Numbered from the stretch's first letter, positions 37,776-44,243 are shown. The stretch is 64,000 bases of DNA from Thiobacillus sp. 65-29 (GCA_001899775.1 MKWN01000028.1:15612-79611), one strand, 5' to 3'. A program made the numbers and translations. Notes: generated from the sequence alone by a model not told the origin.

Positions 37776-37844
37776 GGCTGTTCGGATCAATGCGGCACTA
37801 CCGCAGGCGAGCAATTCGCGCGCCAAGTATAACCCCGGCGCGCG

Positions 37845-38666
37845 TCAGCGCATCGGTGCGGCGGGCACGAAGCCGGGCGGCCCGGGCAGCCGCACGGCCA
37901 CTTTCTGGTAGCCTGCGGGCAGGACGAACAGCTCGGGCTTGAGTGGTTCGGCGGAAAACTCGCGGAATTCCAGACTCACTTTCGAGGGCAGCTTGCGCGC
38001 GAGGTTCGCCATCGGCCCATTGCCGTCGTGGCGCCCGGCGACTTCGCCGCCGCACGGCAGCCCCTGCGGCGCGAGCTTGCGCAGGATCTCGCTCATCACC
38101 TGCGCATACGCCGGCGCGATGCGCGCGACGGCGGGTACCGCAAGGAAGAATCCCGGCCGCGCGGTTGCCTCGACCAGTTCGCGGACCGCCGCCTGCTCGG
38201 GCACCCCCTGCGCGAGCCAGATGCGGCCGCTCAGGTGAAACACCGTTTCCTCGTTGCCCAGGCGCGTCGGCACGCTGGCTTCGAGGACGTGCTCGCGGCA
38301 GGTCCATTTCTGCAGCGGCCGGGTCGCACCGGTCGGCTCGAAGCTCAACTTGAGGCGACCGGTCGGCGCGCTCGCCTCGGTGGCGGCGTCGAGTGCGGCG
38401 AGATCGTGAACTTCGGCGGTGCGCGTGAAATGGTCGACGATCATGGCCTGGCGCGTGGCGAGGTCGAACAGGTGGGTGATGGCGCGCCCGCGGTCGGTGA
38501 AGTCGCGCCGCACCGTGGTGCCGCGCACCCAGATGCGCTCCTGGCTGGACAGCGGGGTGCCGAAGGCGTCGATCACGCTATAGCCGGCGAGCGCGAGATC
38601 GGCGCGCGCCGGCACGGCAGCGAAAGTCAGGATGGCGGCAAGCGCGAGTCCGCGAACAGAGGTCAT
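37845..38666 (-). CDS. Periplasmic hypothetical protein, DUF4412-like beta-rich
   Basis: Signal peptide ending VPARA; C-terminal ELFVLPAGYQKV; ATGA overlap with the MMPL gene. Confidence 0.7.
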   Translation of the reverse strand: MTSVRGLALAAILTFAAVPARADLALAGYSVIDAFGTPLSSQERIWVRGTTVRRDFTDRGRAITHLFDLATRQAMIVDHFTRTAEVHDLAALDAATEASAPTGRLKLSFEPTGATRPLQKWTCREHVLEASVPTRLGNEETVFHLSGRIWLAQGVPEQAAVRELVEATARPGFFLAVPAVARIAPAYAQVMSEILRKLAPQGLPCGGEVAGRHDGNGPMANLARKLPSKVSLEFREFSAEPLKPELFVLPAGYQKVAVRLPGPPGFVPAAPMR

Positions 38667-40927
38667 GTCTTGCCTTCGTGTCGTGTTTCGTCGAGGCCCA
38701 GGCGCTGGTAGACCCGCATCAGCGGCTTCGGCGCCCACCAGTTGAGCCAGCCCATCAGCCGCAGGGTGGAAGGCACCAGCAGCATGCGCACCAGTGTCGC
38801 ATCGACCACCACCGAGAGCAACAGGCCTAGACCGATGGCCTTGATGAACACCACCTCACCGAGCGCGAAGGCGCCGAGCACCACACCGATCAGCAGCGCG
38901 GCGTTGGTGATGATCGGCCCACTGCGCTGCATGCCGGTGGACACCGACTTCAGGCTGTCGCCGCGCGTGGCGTCGCACATTTCCTTGACCCGCGACAACA
39001 GGAACACTTCGTAGTCGATGGACAGGCCGAAGGCGGCGGCGAAGATCAGCACCAGGATCGTGCCGTCGAGCGCGCCCTGCGGGGTGAACCCGAGCCAGGC
39101 GGACAGGTTGCCCTCCTGGATGATCCACACCAGCGCACCGAAGGTGGCCGACAGCGACAGCAGATTGGTGAGCACGACCTTCACCGGCACGAGGATGCTG
39201 CCCAGCATGAGGAACAGCAGCACGAAAATGACGACGATGATCGCCGTCATCACCTTGGGCACGCCGGCGCGCAGTGCGTCGAGATAGTCGAGATGGAAGG
39301 CCGGGAAGCCACCCACCACCACGTCGCGCAAGCCCGCGTCGACGGGCAGCGCACGAATGCGCTCGACCAGCGCGCGTGCCGCCGGTGACGCCGGATCGGC
39401 GCGGTACTGGACGTGGATCAGCGTGGTGTCGCCGCGGCTGTAGGCCTCCAGCGCGGCCTGCGCCGGCGGAAAGGCCTCGGGGTGCTGGTAGAGCATCTGG
39501 TAGTCGGCGAGCGCGAGCGTCGCATCCAGGCTCATCAGGCCGGTGACGCGCGTCACGCCGGGTAGCGCAGCGAGCGTCCCGTGCAGGCGGTGGAGCGCGG
39601 CCAGACTGGCGGGATCGGTGAGCGGGGCGCGCGTGGTGACGACGACGAGGATGGGGCTCAACTCGCTGACCGCGAAGTCGCTGGCGAGCAGGTCCTGCAC
39701 CTGCCGGCTTTCCGCCGAGGGCGGCAGCGAGCGCGCGTCGGCCGGACCGATCTGCAGATTGCGCACCGGCCAGGCGAGCACCAGCAGGATGGCCAGCGAG
39801 GCGAGCAGCACCAGTCGTGCATGGCGCATGACGAAATGGCTGAAGCGGTACCAGCGGCCGCTCTCACCCGTATCCGGGGCGTGAGGCTTGAGGAACGGGG
39901 GTGCCCAGCGGTTGACACGGTGACCGAGCAGCGCCAGCAGCGCCGGCAGCAGGAGAATCGTGGCCATCATCGCCGTGGCGACGGAGATGCCGCCGGCAAG
40001 CCCCATGTTGTGGAAGAAGCGCTGCGGCAGCAGGAACAGACAGAACAGGCTGCTCGCCACCGTCAGCCCGCTGAACATGAGGGTGCGCCCCGCAGTGGCG
40101 AGCGTGATGCGCAGCGCGACGTCCACCGGCTTGCCGAGCGCGAGTTCCTCGCGGAAGCGCGACACCATGAAAAGGCTGTAGTCGACGGCAAGGCCCAACC
40201 CCAGCATCGACACCACGTTGGGCGCGTACACGCTGATCTCCGTGCCCCAGGTGGCCAGCTTCATCCAGGCCATACTGCTGGCGATGGTTGCCGCACCGAC
40301 GACGAGTGGCAACAGCGCCGCCACCGCGGAACGGAACACCAGCACCAGCAACGCCGCCAGCAGCACGAAGCTCGCGCTCTCGGCGATGCGCAGGTCGCGG
40401 TCGAGCTGCTCGCGCACGTCGACGTAGACCGCCAGTTCGCCGCCCAGGCGCAGCGCGAGCGCCTCGCTCGCCAGCACGTCGCGCAGTTGCCGATAGGCGG
40501 CGACGCCCTCGTCGTGGCCGCGTGCGAGATGCACCAGCGCATAGGTGTGGCGCCCGTCGCGCGATTTCAGGCGCGCATCGCCCGTGGTGTAGTAGGTGTG
40601 CGCCGCGCGCACCGCGTCGAGGCCGACCAGCGGCGCCAGCGCCGCTTCCACCGCCGCGCGGTAGTCCGGACTGTCGACCCGCTGTGGCCCGCCGGCACCG
40701 CGCGGACTGAACATCACCACCACCGGCGCCTCGTCGTGGCCCAACTGCTCGCGCAGGATCGCATCGACCCGTGCGGAACCCGACGCCGGCGCGTGCCAGC
40801 CCGGATCGAGCGTCAGCCGCGCGGTGATGTCATGGCCGAAACCGACGGCAAAGACCGTCCATGCGACGGCCACCGCGACGAACACCCACGGCATGCGTAC
40901 CACCCAGCGCGCCAGCGTCGTGAACAT
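38663..40927 (-). CDS. MMPL-family (RND superfamily) transporter, MmpL3/MmpL11-type signatures
   Basis: Two repeats with GLAVDYSLF.VSRFREE and GLSIDYEVF.LSRVKE; TAGRTLMFSG; VDATLVRMLLVP. Confidence 0.9.
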   Translation of the reverse strand: MFTTLARWVVRMPWVFVAVAVAWTVFAVGFGHDITARLTLDPGWHAPASGSARVDAILREQLGHDEAPVVVMFSPRGAGGPQRVDSPDYRAAVEAALAPLVGLDAVRAAHTYYTTGDARLKSRDGRHTYALVHLARGHDEGVAAYRQLRDVLASEALALRLGGELAVYVDVREQLDRDLRIAESASFVLLAALLVLVFRSAVAALLPLVVGAATIASSMAWMKLATWGTEISVYAPNVVSMLGLGLAVDYSLFMVSRFREELALGKPVDVALRITLATAGRTLMFSGLTVASSLFCLFLLPQRFFHNMGLAGGISVATAMMATILLLPALLALLGHRVNRWAPPFLKPHAPDTGESGRWYRFSHFVMRHARLVLLASLAILLVLAWPVRNLQIGPADARSLPPSAESRQVQDLLASDFAVSELSPILVVVTTRAPLTDPASLAALHRLHGTLAALPGVTRVTGLMSLDATLALADYQMLYQHPEAFPPAQAALEAYSRGDTTLIHVQYRADPASPAARALVERIRALPVDAGLRDVVVGGFPAFHLDYLDALRAGVPKVMTAIIVVIFVLLFLMLGSILVPVKVVLTNLLSLSATFGALVWIIQEGNLSAWLGFTPQGALDGTILVLIFAAAFGLSIDYEVFLLSRVKEMCDATRGDSLKSVSTGMQRSGPIITNAALLIGVVLGAFALGEVVFIKAIGLGLLLSVVVDATLVRMLLVPSTLRLMGWLNWWAPKPLMRVYQRLGLDETRHEGKT

Positions 40928-40940
40928 GCGCCGGCCCTCC

Positions 40941-41483
40941 TCAGCGGACCGCCATGCGGCGTTCTGCCTCACGCGCCACCGCGTCAAGGCGCAGGCGGAC
41001 CTCGTCCTGCACATAGGCGTCGGTCAGCGCCGGCGGCGGCGGCAACAGCGGCACCACGTGCGCCCGGTAAACCAGACGCACCGGACGCCGGCTGCCCTCG
41101 ATGCGCCACTCGCCGCGCATCGAGGCGACCCACCCCGACACCGAGCGGAAGCCGATCCACACGGGGGGACGCTCGTCCATCGCGAGCACCACATGATCCG
41201 GCAGCACCAGCGAAAGCAGGCCGCCCTCGCCCTTCTGCTCGACCAGGCGTGGCCGCACCTGGGGCGGCGACACCTGGCGCGACAGCGTCATCCCCGGCAC
41301 GAAGCTCGCCAGGCGGTTGTAGTCGGTGAGCGTGGCCCACAGTACGTCCGCATCGGCATCGACCTGCGCCACCGCCTGGATACGCACCCCGGCAAGGCCG
41401 ATATCGGTGACCACATTGGCGCGCGCCAGCACCATGGCTGGCAGGCACGCCAGAACACCCAGCAGGATTCTGTATCGGTTCAC
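40941..41483 (-). CDS. SRPBCC/START-fold (polyketide cyclase/dehydrase-like) protein with N-terminal signal
   Basis: GTG at 41483 after GGAGG; LWATLTDYNRLASFVPGM; SMRGEWRI. Confidence 0.75.
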   Translation of the reverse strand: MNRYRILLGVLACLPAMVLARANVVTDIGLAGVRIQAVAQVDADADVLWATLTDYNRLASFVPGMTLSRQVSPPQVRPRLVEQKGEGGLLSLVLPDHVVLAMDERPPVWIGFRSVSGWVASMRGEWRIEGSRRPVRLVYRAHVVPLLPPPPALTDAYVQDEVRLRLDAVAREAERRMAVR

Positions 41484-41666
41484 GCCACGCCTCCGCATCT
41501 CCGGCAGGTTTTTCTTTCAGTTTCCTCCATCCGGGGCAAAAGGCAACCCGCGCAGCGTGCGGCACGCGATCGGCGCTGCATCCCCGCTGCGCGAAAGTGC
41601 CAATGTCGCTATCCGCATCCCGAATTCCTAGAATGGGCTCACAACAATACCCAGGAGAGGACACGC

Positions 41667-42086
41667 ATGGACATGAAACGCTTCGAAACCCAGCATGAAG
41701 CCATCCAGCGTGGCATCGACGACCTGCGCACGCTCTCCAGGCGGGGCGTAAGTGAGAACGCTGCCGAAATCGCACGGCTGGTGGTGAACATCAGTTCCAC
41801 CATCAAGCTGCACCTGGCCGGTGAGGATCGCATGCTCTATCCTGCCGCGTTGCGCGCGGGCGATGCCGCGGTGGCACGGCTGGCGCAACGGTATCAGGAC
41901 GACATGGGCCCGCTTGCCGCGGAATTCGAAGCATTCGTGCGCCGCTGGAACACTGCGCAGCCCCTGCGCGAACAGGCGGAGACCTTCCGCCGCGAAGCGA
42001 ACACGGTGCTTCGCCTGCTGTGGGAGCGCATGCAGCGCGAAAACACCGAGTTCTATCCGCGCATGAAAGAACTGAAGGTCGACTGA
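41667..42086 (+). CDS. Hemerythrin/HHE-domain protein
   Basis: AGGAGAGG RBS; QH..., KLHLAGEDRMLYP, RENTEFYP. Confidence 0.8.
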   Translation: MDMKRFETQHEAIQRGIDDLRTLSRRGVSENAAEIARLVVNISSTIKLHLAGEDRMLYPAALRAGDAAVARLAQRYQDDMGPLAAEFEAFVRRWNTAQPLREQAETFRREANTVLRLLWERMQRENTEFYPRMKELKVD

Positions 42087-42141
42087 CCCCCGCGCGACAA
42101 CGAGCCCAAGGTACCGGCCGACGGGGTTCGGCCCGCGAACA

Positions 42142-42585
42142 CTAGCGCGGCACGCAGTACGAGGGATAAGCCAGGCGCGCCGCCTCGGGCCGCTCCAGCG
42201 CCCGGTACCGGCCCCCGGAGAACCGTGGACAGTCGCGCGCAAGGCCTGCCGCGATCACGGCCGCGCCGATGTCCTCGCCACCCGCCTCGCCAACGAAGCA
42301 GGTGCCGACCACGCGGTCCTTCGATCGCGTGCCATCCAGCTCGCATCTGACCTCGCGGCCCTGTGCCAGCCGCTCGACGAAGCGGGTGGCCTCGGCGCCG
42401 CCACGCTGGTCACGCTCCGGTGCGGCCACGCCCTGCAGGCGAACCTTGACGATTGTGCCGGCGCGTTTGAGATGGAGCGTGTCGCCATCGACCACGTGGG
42501 CGATGCCCGTGACGTGTCCACCGCCGCGGGCAAAAACCGGGGTGACAGCAAGGGCTGCAACGAGCAGCCCGGCGATCAGGCGCAT
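42142..42585 (-). CDS. Secreted thermonuclease (SNase-like) family protein
   Basis: Signal peptide, VVDGDTL, VRLQGVAAPE, GLARDCPRFSGGRY. Confidence 0.85.
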   Translation of the reverse strand: MRLIAGLLVAALAVTPVFARGGGHVTGIAHVVDGDTLHLKRAGTIVKVRLQGVAAPERDQRGGAEATRFVERLAQGREVRCELDGTRSKDRVVGTCFVGEAGGEDIGAAVIAAGLARDCPRFSGGRYRALERPEAARLAYPSYCVPR

Positions 42586-42693
42586 GGGGTGGTTTCCTTT
42601 GTTGTTCAACCCTGATTTTCCATTAGCACCCTGCGATCCGCTTGCCGGCCGAAACGGGCATTTGGAGCCAGATTCGGCCCGCACGCCGGCCTC

Positions 42694-44136
42694 CTACCGG
42701 GGGGACGCCGATTCCCCCACGCGCAGGATGCGCATGGCGTTGGTGCCACCGTGCACGCCGGCGAGATCGCCCTCGGTGATGATGACCAGATCGCCCTCGC
42801 GCACCGCACCGTACCGCATGAGCCGGTCGAGCGCTTCGCGGTTCACCTCGGCATGGCCGGCGGCGGTCACGTCGAAGTCGACCGGGTAGACGCCGCGATA
42901 AAGCGTCACCTTCGCACGGGTGTCGGCATGGCGCGTCAGGGCGTAGATCGGGATGCCGGAACTGATGCGCGACATCCACAGTGGCGTTGCGCCCGACTCG
43001 GTGAGTGCCGCGATGGCCTTCACGTTCAGATGGTTGGCGGTGTACATCGCGGCCTTGGCGATGGCCTCGTCGATGCGGTGGAAACGCATCGTCTGGCGGC
43101 GCGCGGACAGGGTGGTCAGGCGCTGGCGCTCCGCGGCCTTGCAGATGCGATCCATCGCCTGCACCACGCGTGCCGGGTATTTGCCGATGGCGGTCTCGGC
43201 GGACAGCATGACGGCGTCGGTCCCGTCGAGCACGGCGTTGGCGACGTCGAACACCTCGGCGCGCGTCGGAATGGGATTCTCGACCATCGACTGCATCATC
43301 TGCGTGGCGGTGATGACGACGCGGTCGAGGCTGCGCGCCGCCTGGATGATGCGCTTCTGCACCGCGGGCAGTTCGGCGTCGCCGATCTCCACGCCGAGGT
43401 CGCCACGCGCGATCATCACCACATCGGCGGCCTGCATGATGTCCTCGAGGCTGGCGACCGCCTCGGCGCGCTCGATCTTGGCGACGATGCCGGCACGGCC
43501 ACCGGCCGCATGCAGCAGCGCGCGCGCCTCGTGAATGTCGTCGGCCGAACGCGGGAAGGAGACGGCGAGATAATCGGCGCGCATCGCGGCGGCGACCGCG
43601 ATGTCGGCGCGGTCCTTGTCGGTGAGGGCCTGGGCCGACAACCCGCCACCCTGGCGGTTGATACCCTTGTTGTCCGCGAGCGCGCCACCGACCACCACGC
43701 GGCATTCGATCTGCGTGCCCCGAACGTCCTCGACCTCGAGGACGATCGCGCCGTCGTCCAGCAGCAGGGTGTCGCCGCGAACAACGTCTGCGGGCAGCGC
43801 GGCGTAGCTGATGCCGACCCGCTCCCGCGTACCGTCCCCGGCCGGCAGCGCGGCATCCAGCACGAAGCGCGCACCGTCCGCGAGATGCACCGGCCCCTCG
43901 CGGAAACGCTGGATGCGGATTTTCGGCCCCTGCAGATCGGCCAGCACGCCGACTTCGCGCCCAAGGGTGCCGGCTCGCTCACGCACCCTGCGCGCACGCT
44001 CGATGTGCTCCGGCTGGCTGCCGTGGGAGAAATTCAGCCGCACGACGTCGACGCCGGCGTGGATGAGTTCGTCCAGGACGCGGGCATCGTCGGTCGCCGG
44101 GCCGAGGGTTGCAACGATCTTGGTTCTGCGTTTCAT
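42694..44136 (-). CDS. pyk: Pyruvate kinase
   Basis: RTKIVATLGPA, RLNFSHG, DLQGPKIR, KIERAEA, MIARGDLGVE, DAVMLSAET. Confidence 0.96.
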   Translation of the reverse strand: MKRRTKIVATLGPATDDARVLDELIHAGVDVVRLNFSHGSQPEHIERARRVRERAGTLGREVGVLADLQGPKIRIQRFREGPVHLADGARFVLDAALPAGDGTRERVGISYAALPADVVRGDTLLLDDGAIVLEVEDVRGTQIECRVVVGGALADNKGINRQGGGLSAQALTDKDRADIAVAAAMRADYLAVSFPRSADDIHEARALLHAAGGRAGIVAKIERAEAVASLEDIMQAADVVMIARGDLGVEIGDAELPAVQKRIIQAARSLDRVVITATQMMQSMVENPIPTRAEVFDVANAVLDGTDAVMLSAETAIGKYPARVVQAMDRICKAAERQRLTTLSARRQTMRFHRIDEAIAKAAMYTANHLNVKAIAALTESGATPLWMSRISSGIPIYALTRHADTRAKVTLYRGVYPVDFDVTAAGHAEVNREALDRLMRYGAVREGDLVIITEGDLAGVHGGTNAMRILRVGESASPR

Positions 44137-44243
44137 GGCGCGCCGCTCTCCTGCAGGGGATGACACACGGACGCGAGGCGCCCGGGGGCTCGGGGTCGAC
44201 ACCCGAAGTGGCCGGCCGGGTGAGGGGGCTGCGCCCGCGGCGA

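What the first reader, a model, noticed from the sequence alone, without database searches (positions are those of the whole stretch)
37845..41483. SRPBCC - MmpL3-like transporter - periplasmic protein operon: candidate novel lipid export system
Seen: three co-oriented genes (13-bp gap and ATGA overlap): a signal-bearing START/SRPBCC-fold protein, an MMPL transporter with both DY proton-relay motifs in MmpL3/11-like context, and a beta-rich periplasmic protein. No membrane-fusion protein or TolC gene is adjacent. Knowledge: MmpL3-type proteins export lipids in Actinobacteria and START folds carry lipids. Inference: an MFP-independent route handing a hydrophobic molecule (hopanoid, quinone or glycolipid) from the inner membrane to periplasmic carriers in a diderm proteobacterium, possibly horizontally acquired.
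Basis: partly seen in the sequence, partly recalled or inferred. Interest (0 to 1): 0.62.

Follow-up and report, generated by a model that had tools for sequence, protein, structure and literature searches.

The report
MmpL3-type pump with periplasmic lipid carriers
A sulfur-bacterium genome carries a compact operon, found so far only in the family Thiobacillaceae, that joins a mycobacterial-type membrane lipid pump to two secreted greasy-molecule carrier proteins; it looks like an uncharacterised way of moving a lipid across the periplasm, but the cargo is unknown.

Summary
On the minus strand lie three tightly packed genes. A (41483-40941) is a secreted SRPBCC/START-fold protein. B (40927-38663) is an MMPL transporter with both Asp-Tyr relay pairs, and its best solved relative is MmpL3. 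C (38666-37845) is a secreted protein with no Pfam family; its confident AlphaFold model has a LolA/LolB fold.

B and C are adjacent in all 23 related loci that extend upstream of C. Their start and stop codons overlap in the window and in loci of every clade, and their divergences track each other (r = 0.93). All C-linked transporters form one clade (support 100).

That clade sits among YdfJ/MmpL3-type transporters. The few named ones come from Actinomycetota and Chloroflexota, and four of the six outgroup contexts seen lie beside fatty-acid or polyketide synthesis genes. The type is rare in Pseudomonadota.

A is an accessory. It is adjacent in 15 loci. In other genomes it sits in a ClsB (cardiolipin synthase) operon, yet it co-occurs genome-wide with C.

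No membrane-fusion, TolC-type or barrel gene is adjacent. Hopanoid cargo is unlikely, because the genome has no squalene-hopene cyclase and no HpnN.

Best reading: a proton-driven lipid extractor that hands cargo to soluble periplasmic carriers. Function and cargo are inferred, not shown. I rate it a new variant of a known kind, of moderate interest.

The parts
40941..41483 (-). Gene A: secreted SRPBCC/START-fold protein (180 aa from GTG 41483; an in-frame ATG at 41498 is the less likely start)
   Evidence: Pfam PF03364 at 37.9 bits. The signal peptide is conserved in 56 homologues. AF2 pLDDT is 91.9 and Foldseek gives TM 0.6-0.7 to SRPBCC structures, including a Xanthomonas START-related lipid transfer protein. 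It is the only copy in the genome.
38663..40927 (-). Gene B: MmpL3/YdfJ-type (HAE2-like) MMPL/RND inner-membrane transporter, 754 aa, with no C-terminal cytoplasmic domain
   Evidence: Pfam MMPL 241 bits. NCBIfam MmpL3 domain 361 bits, against HpnN 49. PDB MmpL3 E 1e-83 over the full length, with both Asp-Tyr pairs aligned. The hydropathy pattern fits TM1, loop, TM2-6, TM7, loop, TM8-12. It is the only true MMPL in the genome.
37845..38666 (-). Gene C: secreted LolA/LolB-fold protein of a new sequence family, 273 aa, translationally coupled to B by an ATGA overlap
   Evidence: No Pfam, NCBIfam or PDB sequence hit. AF2 pLDDT 89.9. Foldseek top hits are LolB and LolA (E 3.5e-6 to 1e-4, probability 1.0). 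Two invariant Cys and a conserved signal peptide. It lies directly downstream of the MMPL gene in all 23 related loci that extend upstream of C.
37776..44243 (.). About 6.5 kb between atpC and glmU that holds the module plus pyk, an SNase-like gene and a hemerythrin gene. Congeners without the module have a single OmpA-family gene here.
   Evidence: tblastn of the flanks against three same-genus genomes without the module gives atpD-atpC-[1.1 kb, OmpA-like]-glmU. Loci L003 and L004 have atpC-A-B-C-glmU.

Best explanation
This is a self-contained envelope transport module that has been found only in Thiobacillaceae and in a few MAGs carrying other betaproteobacterial labels.

Proposed mechanism:
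- B is a proton-motive-force-driven MmpL3/YdfJ-type RND transporter. It takes an amphiphilic lipid-like molecule from the inner membrane into its periplasmic porter domains.
- It passes the cargo to its translationally coupled partner C, a soluble LolA-fold carrier.
- The secreted SRPBCC protein A acts as a second soluble carrier or acceptor.
- Cargo therefore crosses the periplasm on chaperones, not through an MFP/TolC channel.

What is shown: the fold and family assignments, the secretion signals, the conserved relay residues, the conserved B-C gene pairing and overlap, a single origin for the C-linked transporters, and lipid-synthesis contexts for their nearest relatives.

What is inferred: a physical B-C-A hand-off, the outward direction, and the lipid nature of the cargo. 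The cargo is unknown. A ClsB-related phospholipid is only a weak lead.
For: - Transporter type: full-length similarity to MmpL3 with both TM4/TM10 Asp-Tyr pairs.
- C has a LolA/LolB fold and A has an SRPBCC helix-grip fold. Both models are confident and both proteins carry conserved signal peptides.
- B-C adjacency in 23 of 23 loci while the outer flanks vary. 4-bp overlaps occur in the window and in loci of several clades.
- Pairwise identities of B and C correlate at r = 0.93, Mantel 0/2000.
- The C-linked MMPLs form one clade with SH-aLRT 100.
- A was recruited next to B-C in the crown clade. A and C co-occur across 151 family genomes: 71 both, 7 C only, 6 A only, 67 neither. Three congeners checked by protein search that lack the module have no A homologue.
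- Four of six outgroup contexts lie beside acyl or polyketide lipid genes: accA/accD, a type II FAS/APE-like set, a trans-AT PKS, and a fatty acyl-AMP ligase.
- No MFP, OMF or barrel gene is adjacent.
Against: - No experiment, expression data or complex model was available.
- No biosynthetic gene is linked, so the cargo is open.
- A is missing next to B-C in 8 loci. Seven C-positive genomes show no A homologue, five of them in one small-genome genus.
- The co-occurrence statistics are not corrected for phylogeny.
- LolA-fold and SRPBCC proteins can also be enzymes or sensors (VioE, polyketide cyclases, PYR/PYL appear among the fold hits).
- No outer-membrane acceptor was identified.
Confidence: 0.55

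Rival explanations
1. The module is an efflux or tolerance system for an exogenous or metabolic hydrophobic small molecule (solvent, terpene, sulfur species, siderophore) rather than for a structural membrane lipid. It would work like AmeABCD or MmpL4/5, with C and A as periplasmic adaptors.
For: AmeABCD pairs an RND pump with a LolA-superfamily periplasmic protein and confers monoterpene tolerance (PMC6394551). MmpL4/5 export siderophores (names). No lipid-synthesis gene is linked to the module. The carriers are chemolithotrophs that handle hydrophobic sulfur (my own background knowledge, not tested).
Against: The transporter is HAE2/MmpL3-like, not HAE3 or MmpL4/5-like. No outer-membrane exit protein is adjacent. 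Four of six outgroup contexts lie in acyl-lipid or polyketide clusters. No regulator of the TetR or AraC type is attached.
Confidence: 0.2
2. Only B and C form a functional unit. The SRPBCC protein belongs to a different pathway (the ClsB/YbhP phospholipid operon seen in other genera), and its position next to B here is incidental.
For: In genus g325 and in other betaproteobacteria the closest SRPBCC relatives (46-57% identity) head an operon of SRPBCC, lipoprotein, an EEP (endonuclease/exonuclease/phosphatase) protein and ClsB, away from MMPL-C. Basal MMPL-C clades lack an adjacent SRPBCC. One genus has C without any SRPBCC.
Against: A is kept directly upstream of B, a few tens of bases or fewer away, in 15 loci spanning 54-91% identity. 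A and C co-occur strongly within a genus where both are patchy. In the window genome A is the only copy and is not next to the EEP-ClsB pair on contig C51.
Confidence: 0.15
3. The module works inward or as a sensor. It would retrieve or monitor mislocalised lipid (as Mla does, or as the LolA-fold domain of RseB senses lipid) rather than export it.
For: LolA-fold proteins include lipid sensors, and SRPBCC proteins include receptors (PYR/PYL among the fold hits). Direction cannot be read from sequence.
Against: Characterised MMPL/RND pumps move substrates out of the inner membrane (established knowledge). No signalling domain or regulator is encoded in or beside the operon.
Confidence: 0.1

Closest known systems
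Mycobacterial MmpL3 (trehalose monomycolate exporter) and its MmpL3/11/YdfJ-type (HAE2, COG2409) relatives, which work with LolA-fold lipoproteins such as LppX and LprG
   Same: Full-length homology with a 12-TM, two-porter-domain architecture. Both Asp-Tyr proton-relay pairs are conserved. It is MFP-independent. Pairing an MMPL pump with a LolA-fold lipid carrier is the logic proposed for MmpL7-LppX (my background knowledge).
   Different: Roughly 30% identity, and 361 bits against the 1400-bit cut-off of the MmpL3 equivalog model. There is no C-terminal cytoplasmic domain. The host is a diderm proteobacterium without mycolic acids. The partner C is a soluble secreted protein, not a lipoprotein, and is translationally coupled. 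A secreted SRPBCC protein is added.
AmeABCD of Castellaniella defragrans and the wider cassettes of COG1033 RND pump, DUF1329 and DUF1302 (PMC6394551)
   Same: A betaproteobacterial RND pump encoded with a periplasmic LolA-superfamily protein instead of a classical MFP. Earlier scan notes report versions with an added START protein.
   Different: AmeD is HAE3. Here TIGR00921 (HAE3) scores 136 bits against a 352-bit cut-off, and the MmpL3-type model scores higher. C is not DUF1329 by sequence. There is no DUF1302 barrel and no COG4447 gene in the operon. The only DUF1302 gene in the genome sits in an unrelated ABC cluster on another contig.
Aryl-polyene cluster export genes: ApeM (RND) with the LolA-like ApeL and the LolB-like ApeN
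   Same: An RND/MMPL-type exporter teamed with LolA/LolB-fold proteins, proposed to carry a lipid to the outer membrane (bioRxiv 10.1101/2020.12.19.423268). One close outgroup of B sits in an APE-like type II FAS cluster.
   Different: No biosynthetic genes are linked here. There is one LolA-fold protein rather than a LolA/LolB pair, and an SRPBCC partner is present.
BstABC sterol transporters of Methylococcus capsulatus, and HpnN
   Same: An inner-membrane MMPL/RND protein plus periplasmic and outer-membrane-facing lipid-binding proteins encoded together, proposed to move a lipid from inner to outer membrane (PMC10942540, PMC11713862).
   Different: BstA and HpnN are HpnN-like. Here BstA scores 29.5 bits and HpnN 49 bits. 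BstB and BstC have different folds (a PhnD-like binding protein and a TatT/TPR protein). The genome has no squalene-hopene cyclase.

Membership tests
MMPL family / RND superfamily (Pfam PF03176) | MMPL domain match above the Pfam gathering score, in two halves | tested here: met
   241.4 bits against a 20.5 cut-off, in 2 stretches.
MMPL family / RND superfamily (Pfam PF03176) | 12 TM helices with large periplasmic loops after TM1 and TM7 | tested here: met
   Hydropathy peaks at 12-30, 188-334 (cluster), 370-388 and 549-719 (cluster), with loops at about 31-187 and 389-548. Colinear alignment to MmpL3 over residues 1-748. The crude predictor did not resolve every helix.
MmpL3-type (HAE2) proton relay | Asp-Tyr pairs in TM4 and TM10 | tested here: met
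   GLGLAVDYSLF (D249-Y250) and FGLSIDYEVF (D638-Y639) align to the MmpL3 motifs GLGIAIDYGLF and FGLSTDYEVF.
MmpL3 orthologue (trehalose monomycolate exporter, NCBIfam NF052608) | Score above the equivalog cut-off, and the C-terminal cytoplasmic domain | tested here: not met
   361.5 bits against a 1400 cut-off. The protein ends at residue 754, just after TM12, aligned to about residue 750 of MmpL3. It is a relative, not an orthologue.
HpnN / HAE3 hopanoid transporter | Match to TIGR03480 or NF052374 above cut-off, and a hopanoid pathway in the genome | tested here: not met
   48.8 bits against 751.85, and 20.2 against 1100. There is no squalene-hopene cyclase (TIGR01507) match in a 99.99% complete genome.
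Tripartite HAE1-type efflux pump (RND + MFP + OMF) | Adjacent membrane-fusion and TolC-family genes | tested here: not met
   Pfam identifies the neighbours as hemerythrin, SNase, pyruvate kinase, GlmU and GlmS. The flanks of 23 related loci vary and show no conserved MFP or OMF gene.
LolA/LolB superfamily (gene C) | Open half-barrel beta-sheet with helices closing a hydrophobic cavity (the fold) | tested here: met
   AF2 pLDDT 89.9. Foldseek top hits are LolB, LolA and EPDR1, at E 3.5e-6 to 1e-3 and probability 1.0. TM is 0.43-0.65 on the target length but only 0.30-0.42 on the query, because C is about 90 residues longer.
LolA/LolB superfamily (gene C) | Sequence membership in a described family (LolA, LolB, DUF4412, DUF1329) | tested here: not met
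   The window protein has no Pfam or NCBIfam hit at E <= 0.1. One of 58 homologues hits DUF4412, at E 0.04. A profile search of PDB sequences finds nothing. One UniRef record calls a homologue DUF4412-containing.
LolA (lipoprotein chaperone) function | Receives triacylated lipoproteins from LolCDE | not testable with these tools
   The gene is coupled to an MMPL gene, not to lolCDE. No binding data are available.
SRPBCC / START superfamily (gene A) | Pfam Polyketide_cyc match and a helix-grip fold | tested here: met
   PF03364 at 37.9 bits against 23.4. AF2 pLDDT 91.9. Foldseek gives TM 0.59-0.71 to ZhuI, WhiE-ORFVI, the Xanthomonas START-related protein 3qsz and PYR/PYL.
AmeABCD-type cassette (HAE3 RND + DUF1329 + COG4447 + DUF1302) | An HAE3 pump with DUF1329 and DUF1302 genes in the same operon | tested here: not met
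   TIGR00921 scores 135.9 against 351.9. C is not DUF1329. The only DUF1302 match is on contig C3, in an ABC/FtsX cluster.

The most novel reading that the evidence does not exclude
The module would be a Lol-like soluble-chaperone route for a non-protein membrane lipid in a diderm bacterium. An MmpL3-type extractor, acquired from Terrabacteria, would load an endogenous lipid onto a dedicated LolA-fold carrier and a START-fold carrier for delivery to the outer membrane. The cargo might be a ClsB-made phospholipid such as cardiolipin, given that the SRPBCC gene alternates between this operon and a ClsB operon. This would be an alternative to bridge-type (AsmA/Mce/Lpt) lipid transport.
Probability: 0.2. 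Interest if true: 0.75.

Novelty: new variant of a known kind. Interest (0 to 1): 0.5.

Why it matters
How lipids other than LPS and lipoproteins cross the periplasm is still only partly understood. Current models favour protein bridges. This module puts the best-studied mycobacterial lipid pump type into a classical diderm, together with two soluble carriers of folds known to hold lipids, and with no channel or bridge component.

If the inferred hand-off is real, it gives three things:
- a compact three-protein model for chaperone-mediated lipid shuttling;
- a new LolA-fold family with a defined partner;
- a natural case of an MmpL3-type pump transferred between phyla and rewired.

Its narrow distribution and unknown cargo limit how widely it matters for now.

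Tried and rejected
- **Hopanoid cargo.** Rejected. The genome has no squalene-hopene cyclase. The only other MMPL-Pfam hits are SecD-like and AcrB-like.
- **ClsB as a phyletic marker of the cargo.** Uninformative. ClsB is present in 143 of 151 family genomes whether or not they carry the module. The SRPBCC-ClsB operon link is kept only as a weak lead.
- **Sequence searches for C.** Pfam, NCBIfam and PDB sequences gave nothing, by single sequence or by profile.
- **Non-coding signals.** Rfam over the whole window found nothing. The sigma-70 promoter scan found nothing, and no convincing terminator lies between C and glmU.
- **A 273-aa ORF downstream of a distant betaproteobacterial MMPL (L042).** It is a spurious Arg-rich high-GC ORF. 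The contexts of G556 and G646 were not pursued, because those MMPLs fall far outside the clade.
- **Compositional anomaly as a sign of recent transfer.** None: GC is 0.68-0.69 in the region against 0.64-0.73 elsewhere.
- **Gene maps of loci.** My own gene caller for high-GC loci, based on third-position GC content, was crude. Those maps were used only alongside tblastn coordinates.
Full report
**1. What is there**

The region holds three co-oriented genes on the minus strand.

- Gene A most likely starts at GTG 41483. A GGAGG lies 6 nt upstream, and database relatives use the same 180-aa form. It ends at 40941.
- Gene B starts 13 bp later at ATG 40927, behind a GGAGG, and ends at 38663.
- Gene C starts at ATG 38666, inside the ATGA that ends B, and ends at 37845.

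Pfam on the neighbours shows:

- upstream and divergent, a hemerythrin-domain gene, then an SNase-like gene and pyruvate kinase;
- downstream and co-oriented, glmU and glmS.

No membrane-fusion or TolC-family gene is adjacent. No terminator-like site lies between C and glmU, so read-through into glmUS is possible but untested.

**2. The three proteins**

*Gene A*
- It matches Pfam Polyketide_cyc (SRPBCC) above threshold.
- The AlphaFold2 model (pLDDT 91.9) is a helix-grip fold. The best Foldseek matches are polyketide aromatase/cyclases, a Xanthomonas START-related lipid transfer protein and PYR/PYL receptors, at TM 0.6-0.7.
- It is therefore a soluble periplasmic protein of a generic hydrophobic-ligand-binding fold.

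*Gene B*
- It is an MMPL protein: 241 bits on Pfam.
- Among solved structures it matches MmpL3 best (E 1e-83). MmpL4/5 follow at 1e-37 and HpnN at 1e-6.
- On NCBIfam it scores 361 bits on the MmpL3 domain model, 212 on the actII MMPL subfamily, 136 on HAE3 and 49 on HpnN. All are below the curated cut-offs.
- The alignment to M. tuberculosis MmpL3 is colinear over residues 1-748. It places D249-Y250 and D638-Y639 on the two Asp-Tyr proton-relay pairs.
- The protein ends just after TM12, so the C-terminal cytoplasmic domain of MmpL3 is absent.
- It is the only true MMPL in the genome. The other weak Pfam hits are SecD-like and AcrB-like proteins.

*Gene C*
- It has no Pfam, NCBIfam or PDB sequence match, alone or as a profile.
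- It has a Sec-type signal peptide (AxA cleavage motif) and two invariant cysteines.
- The AlphaFold2 model is confident (pLDDT 89.9, pTM 0.82).
- Foldseek against the PDB returns LolB, LolA, ependymin-related proteins, VioE and a DUF1329 protein. The top E-values run from 3.5e-6 to 1e-4 at probability 1.0.
- TM-scores are moderate (0.43-0.65 on the target length). C is about 90 residues longer than LolA and carries extra helices.

**3. Is the gene set real? Conservation**

- A word-index search of 5.8 billion proteins found only 55 clusters related to C.
- A scan of one genome per species returned 24 loci. Their labels are Thiobacillus, Thiobacillaceae, Parasulfuritortus, and MAGs called Gallionellaceae, Hydrogenophilaceae or Burkholderiales.
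- In all 23 loci that extend upstream of C, an MMPL gene of 50-95% identity lies directly upstream. A 4-bp overlap is seen in loci of every clade.
- The SRPBCC gene lies directly upstream of the MMPL in 15 loci.
- Genes further out differ from clade to clade: atp genes and glmUS, a chromate transporter and a U32 peptidase, a ClC channel, an ABC-F protein. The two- or three-gene unit is therefore autonomous.
- Pairwise identities of B and C across loci correlate at r = 0.93 (Mantel 0/2000). This is what co-inheritance as a unit predicts, although any two vertically inherited genes would also correlate.

**4. Distribution**

| Sample | Query | Genomes with a match |
|---|---|---|
| Class, evenly drawn, 400 genomes | C | only the window's own genome, plus one marginal hit |
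| Family, 151 genomes | C | 78 genomes, in 12 of 15 genera |
| Order, 301 genomes | MmpL3-like transporter, E <= 1e-40 | 6 genomes, 4 of them in the family |
| Phylum, 401 genomes | MmpL3-like transporter, E <= 1e-40 | 1 genome |

In one search only two candidates per genome were scored, so that count is a floor. Within the window's own genus C is patchy: only 4 of the roughly 60 sampled genomes carry it.

- Three congeners without the module have atpD-atpC-[OmpA-family gene]-glmU. The window has atpC-pyk-SNase-(hemerythrin)-A-B-C-glmU. Close relatives have atpC-A-B-C-glmU.
- Two other congeners carry a divergent copy at a different site.
- GC content is not anomalous.

**5. Phylogeny of the transporter**

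- An exhaustive HMMER search of 1.84 billion cluster representatives found one representative at 69% identity. After that comes a large set at 34-45% identity (370-600 bits), which is much closer than MmpL3 itself.
- Named members of that set are "YdfJ with MMPL/SSD domain", a Dehalococcoidia MAG, Bailinhaonella and Streptosporangium.
- In a maximum-likelihood tree, all 24 C-linked transporters form one clade with SH-aLRT 100 on a long stem, together with the 69% representative. The clade is nested among these outgroups.
- The two other betaproteobacterial MMPLs found (30-33% identity) fall far outside.
- The tree fits a single acquisition of a Terrabacteria-type (HAE2-like) transporter followed by spread within Thiobacillaceae. 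Donor and date are not resolved.
- Four of the six outgroup contexts seen lie next to acyl-lipid or polyketide genes: accA/accD; KR-ACP-ACPS-FabA-KS-ApeI-like; a trans-AT PKS with HMG-CoA synthase and P450s; a fatty acyl-AMP ligase. None has a C-like neighbour.
- This supports a lipid-export role for the subfamily and shows that the C partner is specific to this clade.

**6. The SRPBCC partner is an accessory that moved**

- Loci without an adjacent SRPBCC form the basal clades (L020-L023, L019) and one inner clade (L008/L010/L012) of the tree.
- Genomes of those types do have SRPBCC homologues elsewhere, as tandem pairs.
- In genus g325 (3 of 3 genomes examined) and in other betaproteobacterial contigs, the pair heads an operon of SRPBCC, SRPBCC, a small lipoprotein, a YbhP-like EEP (endonuclease/exonuclease/phosphatase) protein and ClsB. 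ClsB scores 374 bits on NF008427, above the cut-off.
- In two other genomes the pair sits beside an ABC-2 / FG-GAP cluster.
- The window genome has a single SRPBCC gene, which is gene A. It also has an EEP-ClsB pair on another contig with no SRPBCC next to it.
- Across the 151 sampled family genomes, C and the SRPBCC family (E <= 1e-40) give 71 both, 7 C only, 6 SRPBCC only and 67 neither. This count is not corrected for phylogeny.
- Even so, in the window's genus, where both are rare, all four C-positive genomes have the SRPBCC family, and only one C-negative genome has a strong match.
- Five of the seven "C only" genomes belong to one small-genome genus, so A is not obligatory.
- ClsB is near-universal in the family (143 of 151). 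Its phyletic pattern therefore neither supports nor refutes a ClsB-product cargo.

**7. Mechanism proposed**

*Shown*
- An MmpL3-type transporter with an intact proton relay.
- A translationally coupled, secreted LolA-fold protein specific to this transporter clade.
- A secreted SRPBCC protein recruited to the operon.
- No channel-forming partners adjacent.
- Close relatives of the transporter embedded in lipid-synthesis clusters.

*Inferred*
- B uses the proton-motive force to lift an amphiphilic lipid from the inner membrane into its periplasmic domains and hands it to C.
- A acts as a second carrier or acceptor.
- Cargo crosses the periplasm on soluble chaperones.

*Cargo*
- Hopanoids are unlikely: there is no squalene-hopene cyclase and no HpnN.
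- A phospholipid linked to ClsB is a weak lead. MmpL3 itself has been reported to bind phosphatidylethanolamine (reference list of PMC11713862).
- I put about 0.55 on the general export-to-carriers model and about 0.15-0.2 on a ClsB-related phospholipid.

**8. Comparison with known systems**

- *Closest by homology:* MmpL3/YdfJ-type HAE2 transporters. B is not an MmpL3 orthologue.
- *Closest by logic in Proteobacteria:* AmeABCD and the cassettes of COG1033 RND pump, DUF1329 and DUF1302 (PMC6394551). Also the ApeM/ApeL/ApeN genes of aryl-polyene clusters and BstABC/HpnN.
- *Differences here:* the transporter subfamily is HAE2-like rather than HAE3. The LolA-fold protein belongs to no described family. 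No outer-membrane barrel is encoded alongside. The genome's only DUF1302 gene sits in an ABC/FtsX plus LolA-like cluster beside PEP-CTERM genes on another contig. No biosynthetic or regulatory gene is attached.
- Earlier notes of this scan describe gene sets of MMPL, LolA-like protein, barrel and START protein in other phyla. I did not check those notes. They suggest that the combination of folds recurs, and this lowers the novelty class from "categorically new" to "new variant".
- Four full-text searches found no paper describing this module.

**9. Verdict**

The architecture, the co-occurrence, the phylogenetic placement and a plausible foreign origin all hold.
- The core is B plus C, and A is a later recruit.
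- Function remains untested.

Noticed in passing
L033:7414-10989, L036:8001-10876, L060:6454-9838, L061:4808-8254, L062:4869-8389: Other betaproteobacteria, including Thiobacillaceae genus g325, carry a conserved operon of one or two secreted SRPBCC proteins, a small lipoprotein, a YbhP-like endonuclease/exonuclease/phosphatase protein and the cardiolipin synthase ClsB. A periplasmic START-fold protein encoded with ClsB is unexplained and may point to phospholipid trafficking.
   Followed up: partly
G000:C3:19486-25146 (own genome, outside the window): A cluster of two FtsX-type ABC permeases, a DUF1302-like outer-membrane barrel, an ABC ATPase and a probable LolA-like secreted protein, beside TPR and PEP-CTERM-type genes. 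It is a separate candidate envelope export system.
   Followed up: partly
window 37776-44243, compared with L044:2127-3239: The atpC-glmU junction is a variable slot in this genus. Congeners hold a Pro/Ala-rich OmpA-family gene there. This genome holds pyruvate kinase, an SNase-like gene, a hemerythrin gene and the transport module.
   Followed up: partly
L055:306-6707 and L056:266-6991: In two genomes whose MMPL-C pair lacks an adjacent SRPBCC, a tandem SRPBCC pair lies divergently next to a conserved set of an ABC ATPase, an ABC-2 permease, a 650-aa protein with FG-GAP/VCBS-like repeats (judged by eye) and a 307-aa membrane protein. That set is absent from the window genome.
   Followed up: partly
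L057:2040-5543, L065:4001-7294: Close outgroups of the transporter are fusion proteins. One is MMPL-TPR, next to accA/accD. The other is MMPL-Band_7, inside a trans-AT PKS/P450 cluster.
   Followed up: no
window 37776-37844: Only about 70 bp, with no terminator-like hairpin, separate gene C from glmU. The module may be co-transcribed with the UDP-GlcNAc genes glmU and glmS.
   Followed up: no
L020:4098-4616, L022:4072-4575 (minus strand): In the basal MMPL-C clade, a conserved gene for a secreted protein of about 170 aa with no Pfam match lies divergently upstream of the MMPL gene, in the position the SRPBCC gene occupies elsewhere.
   Followed up: no
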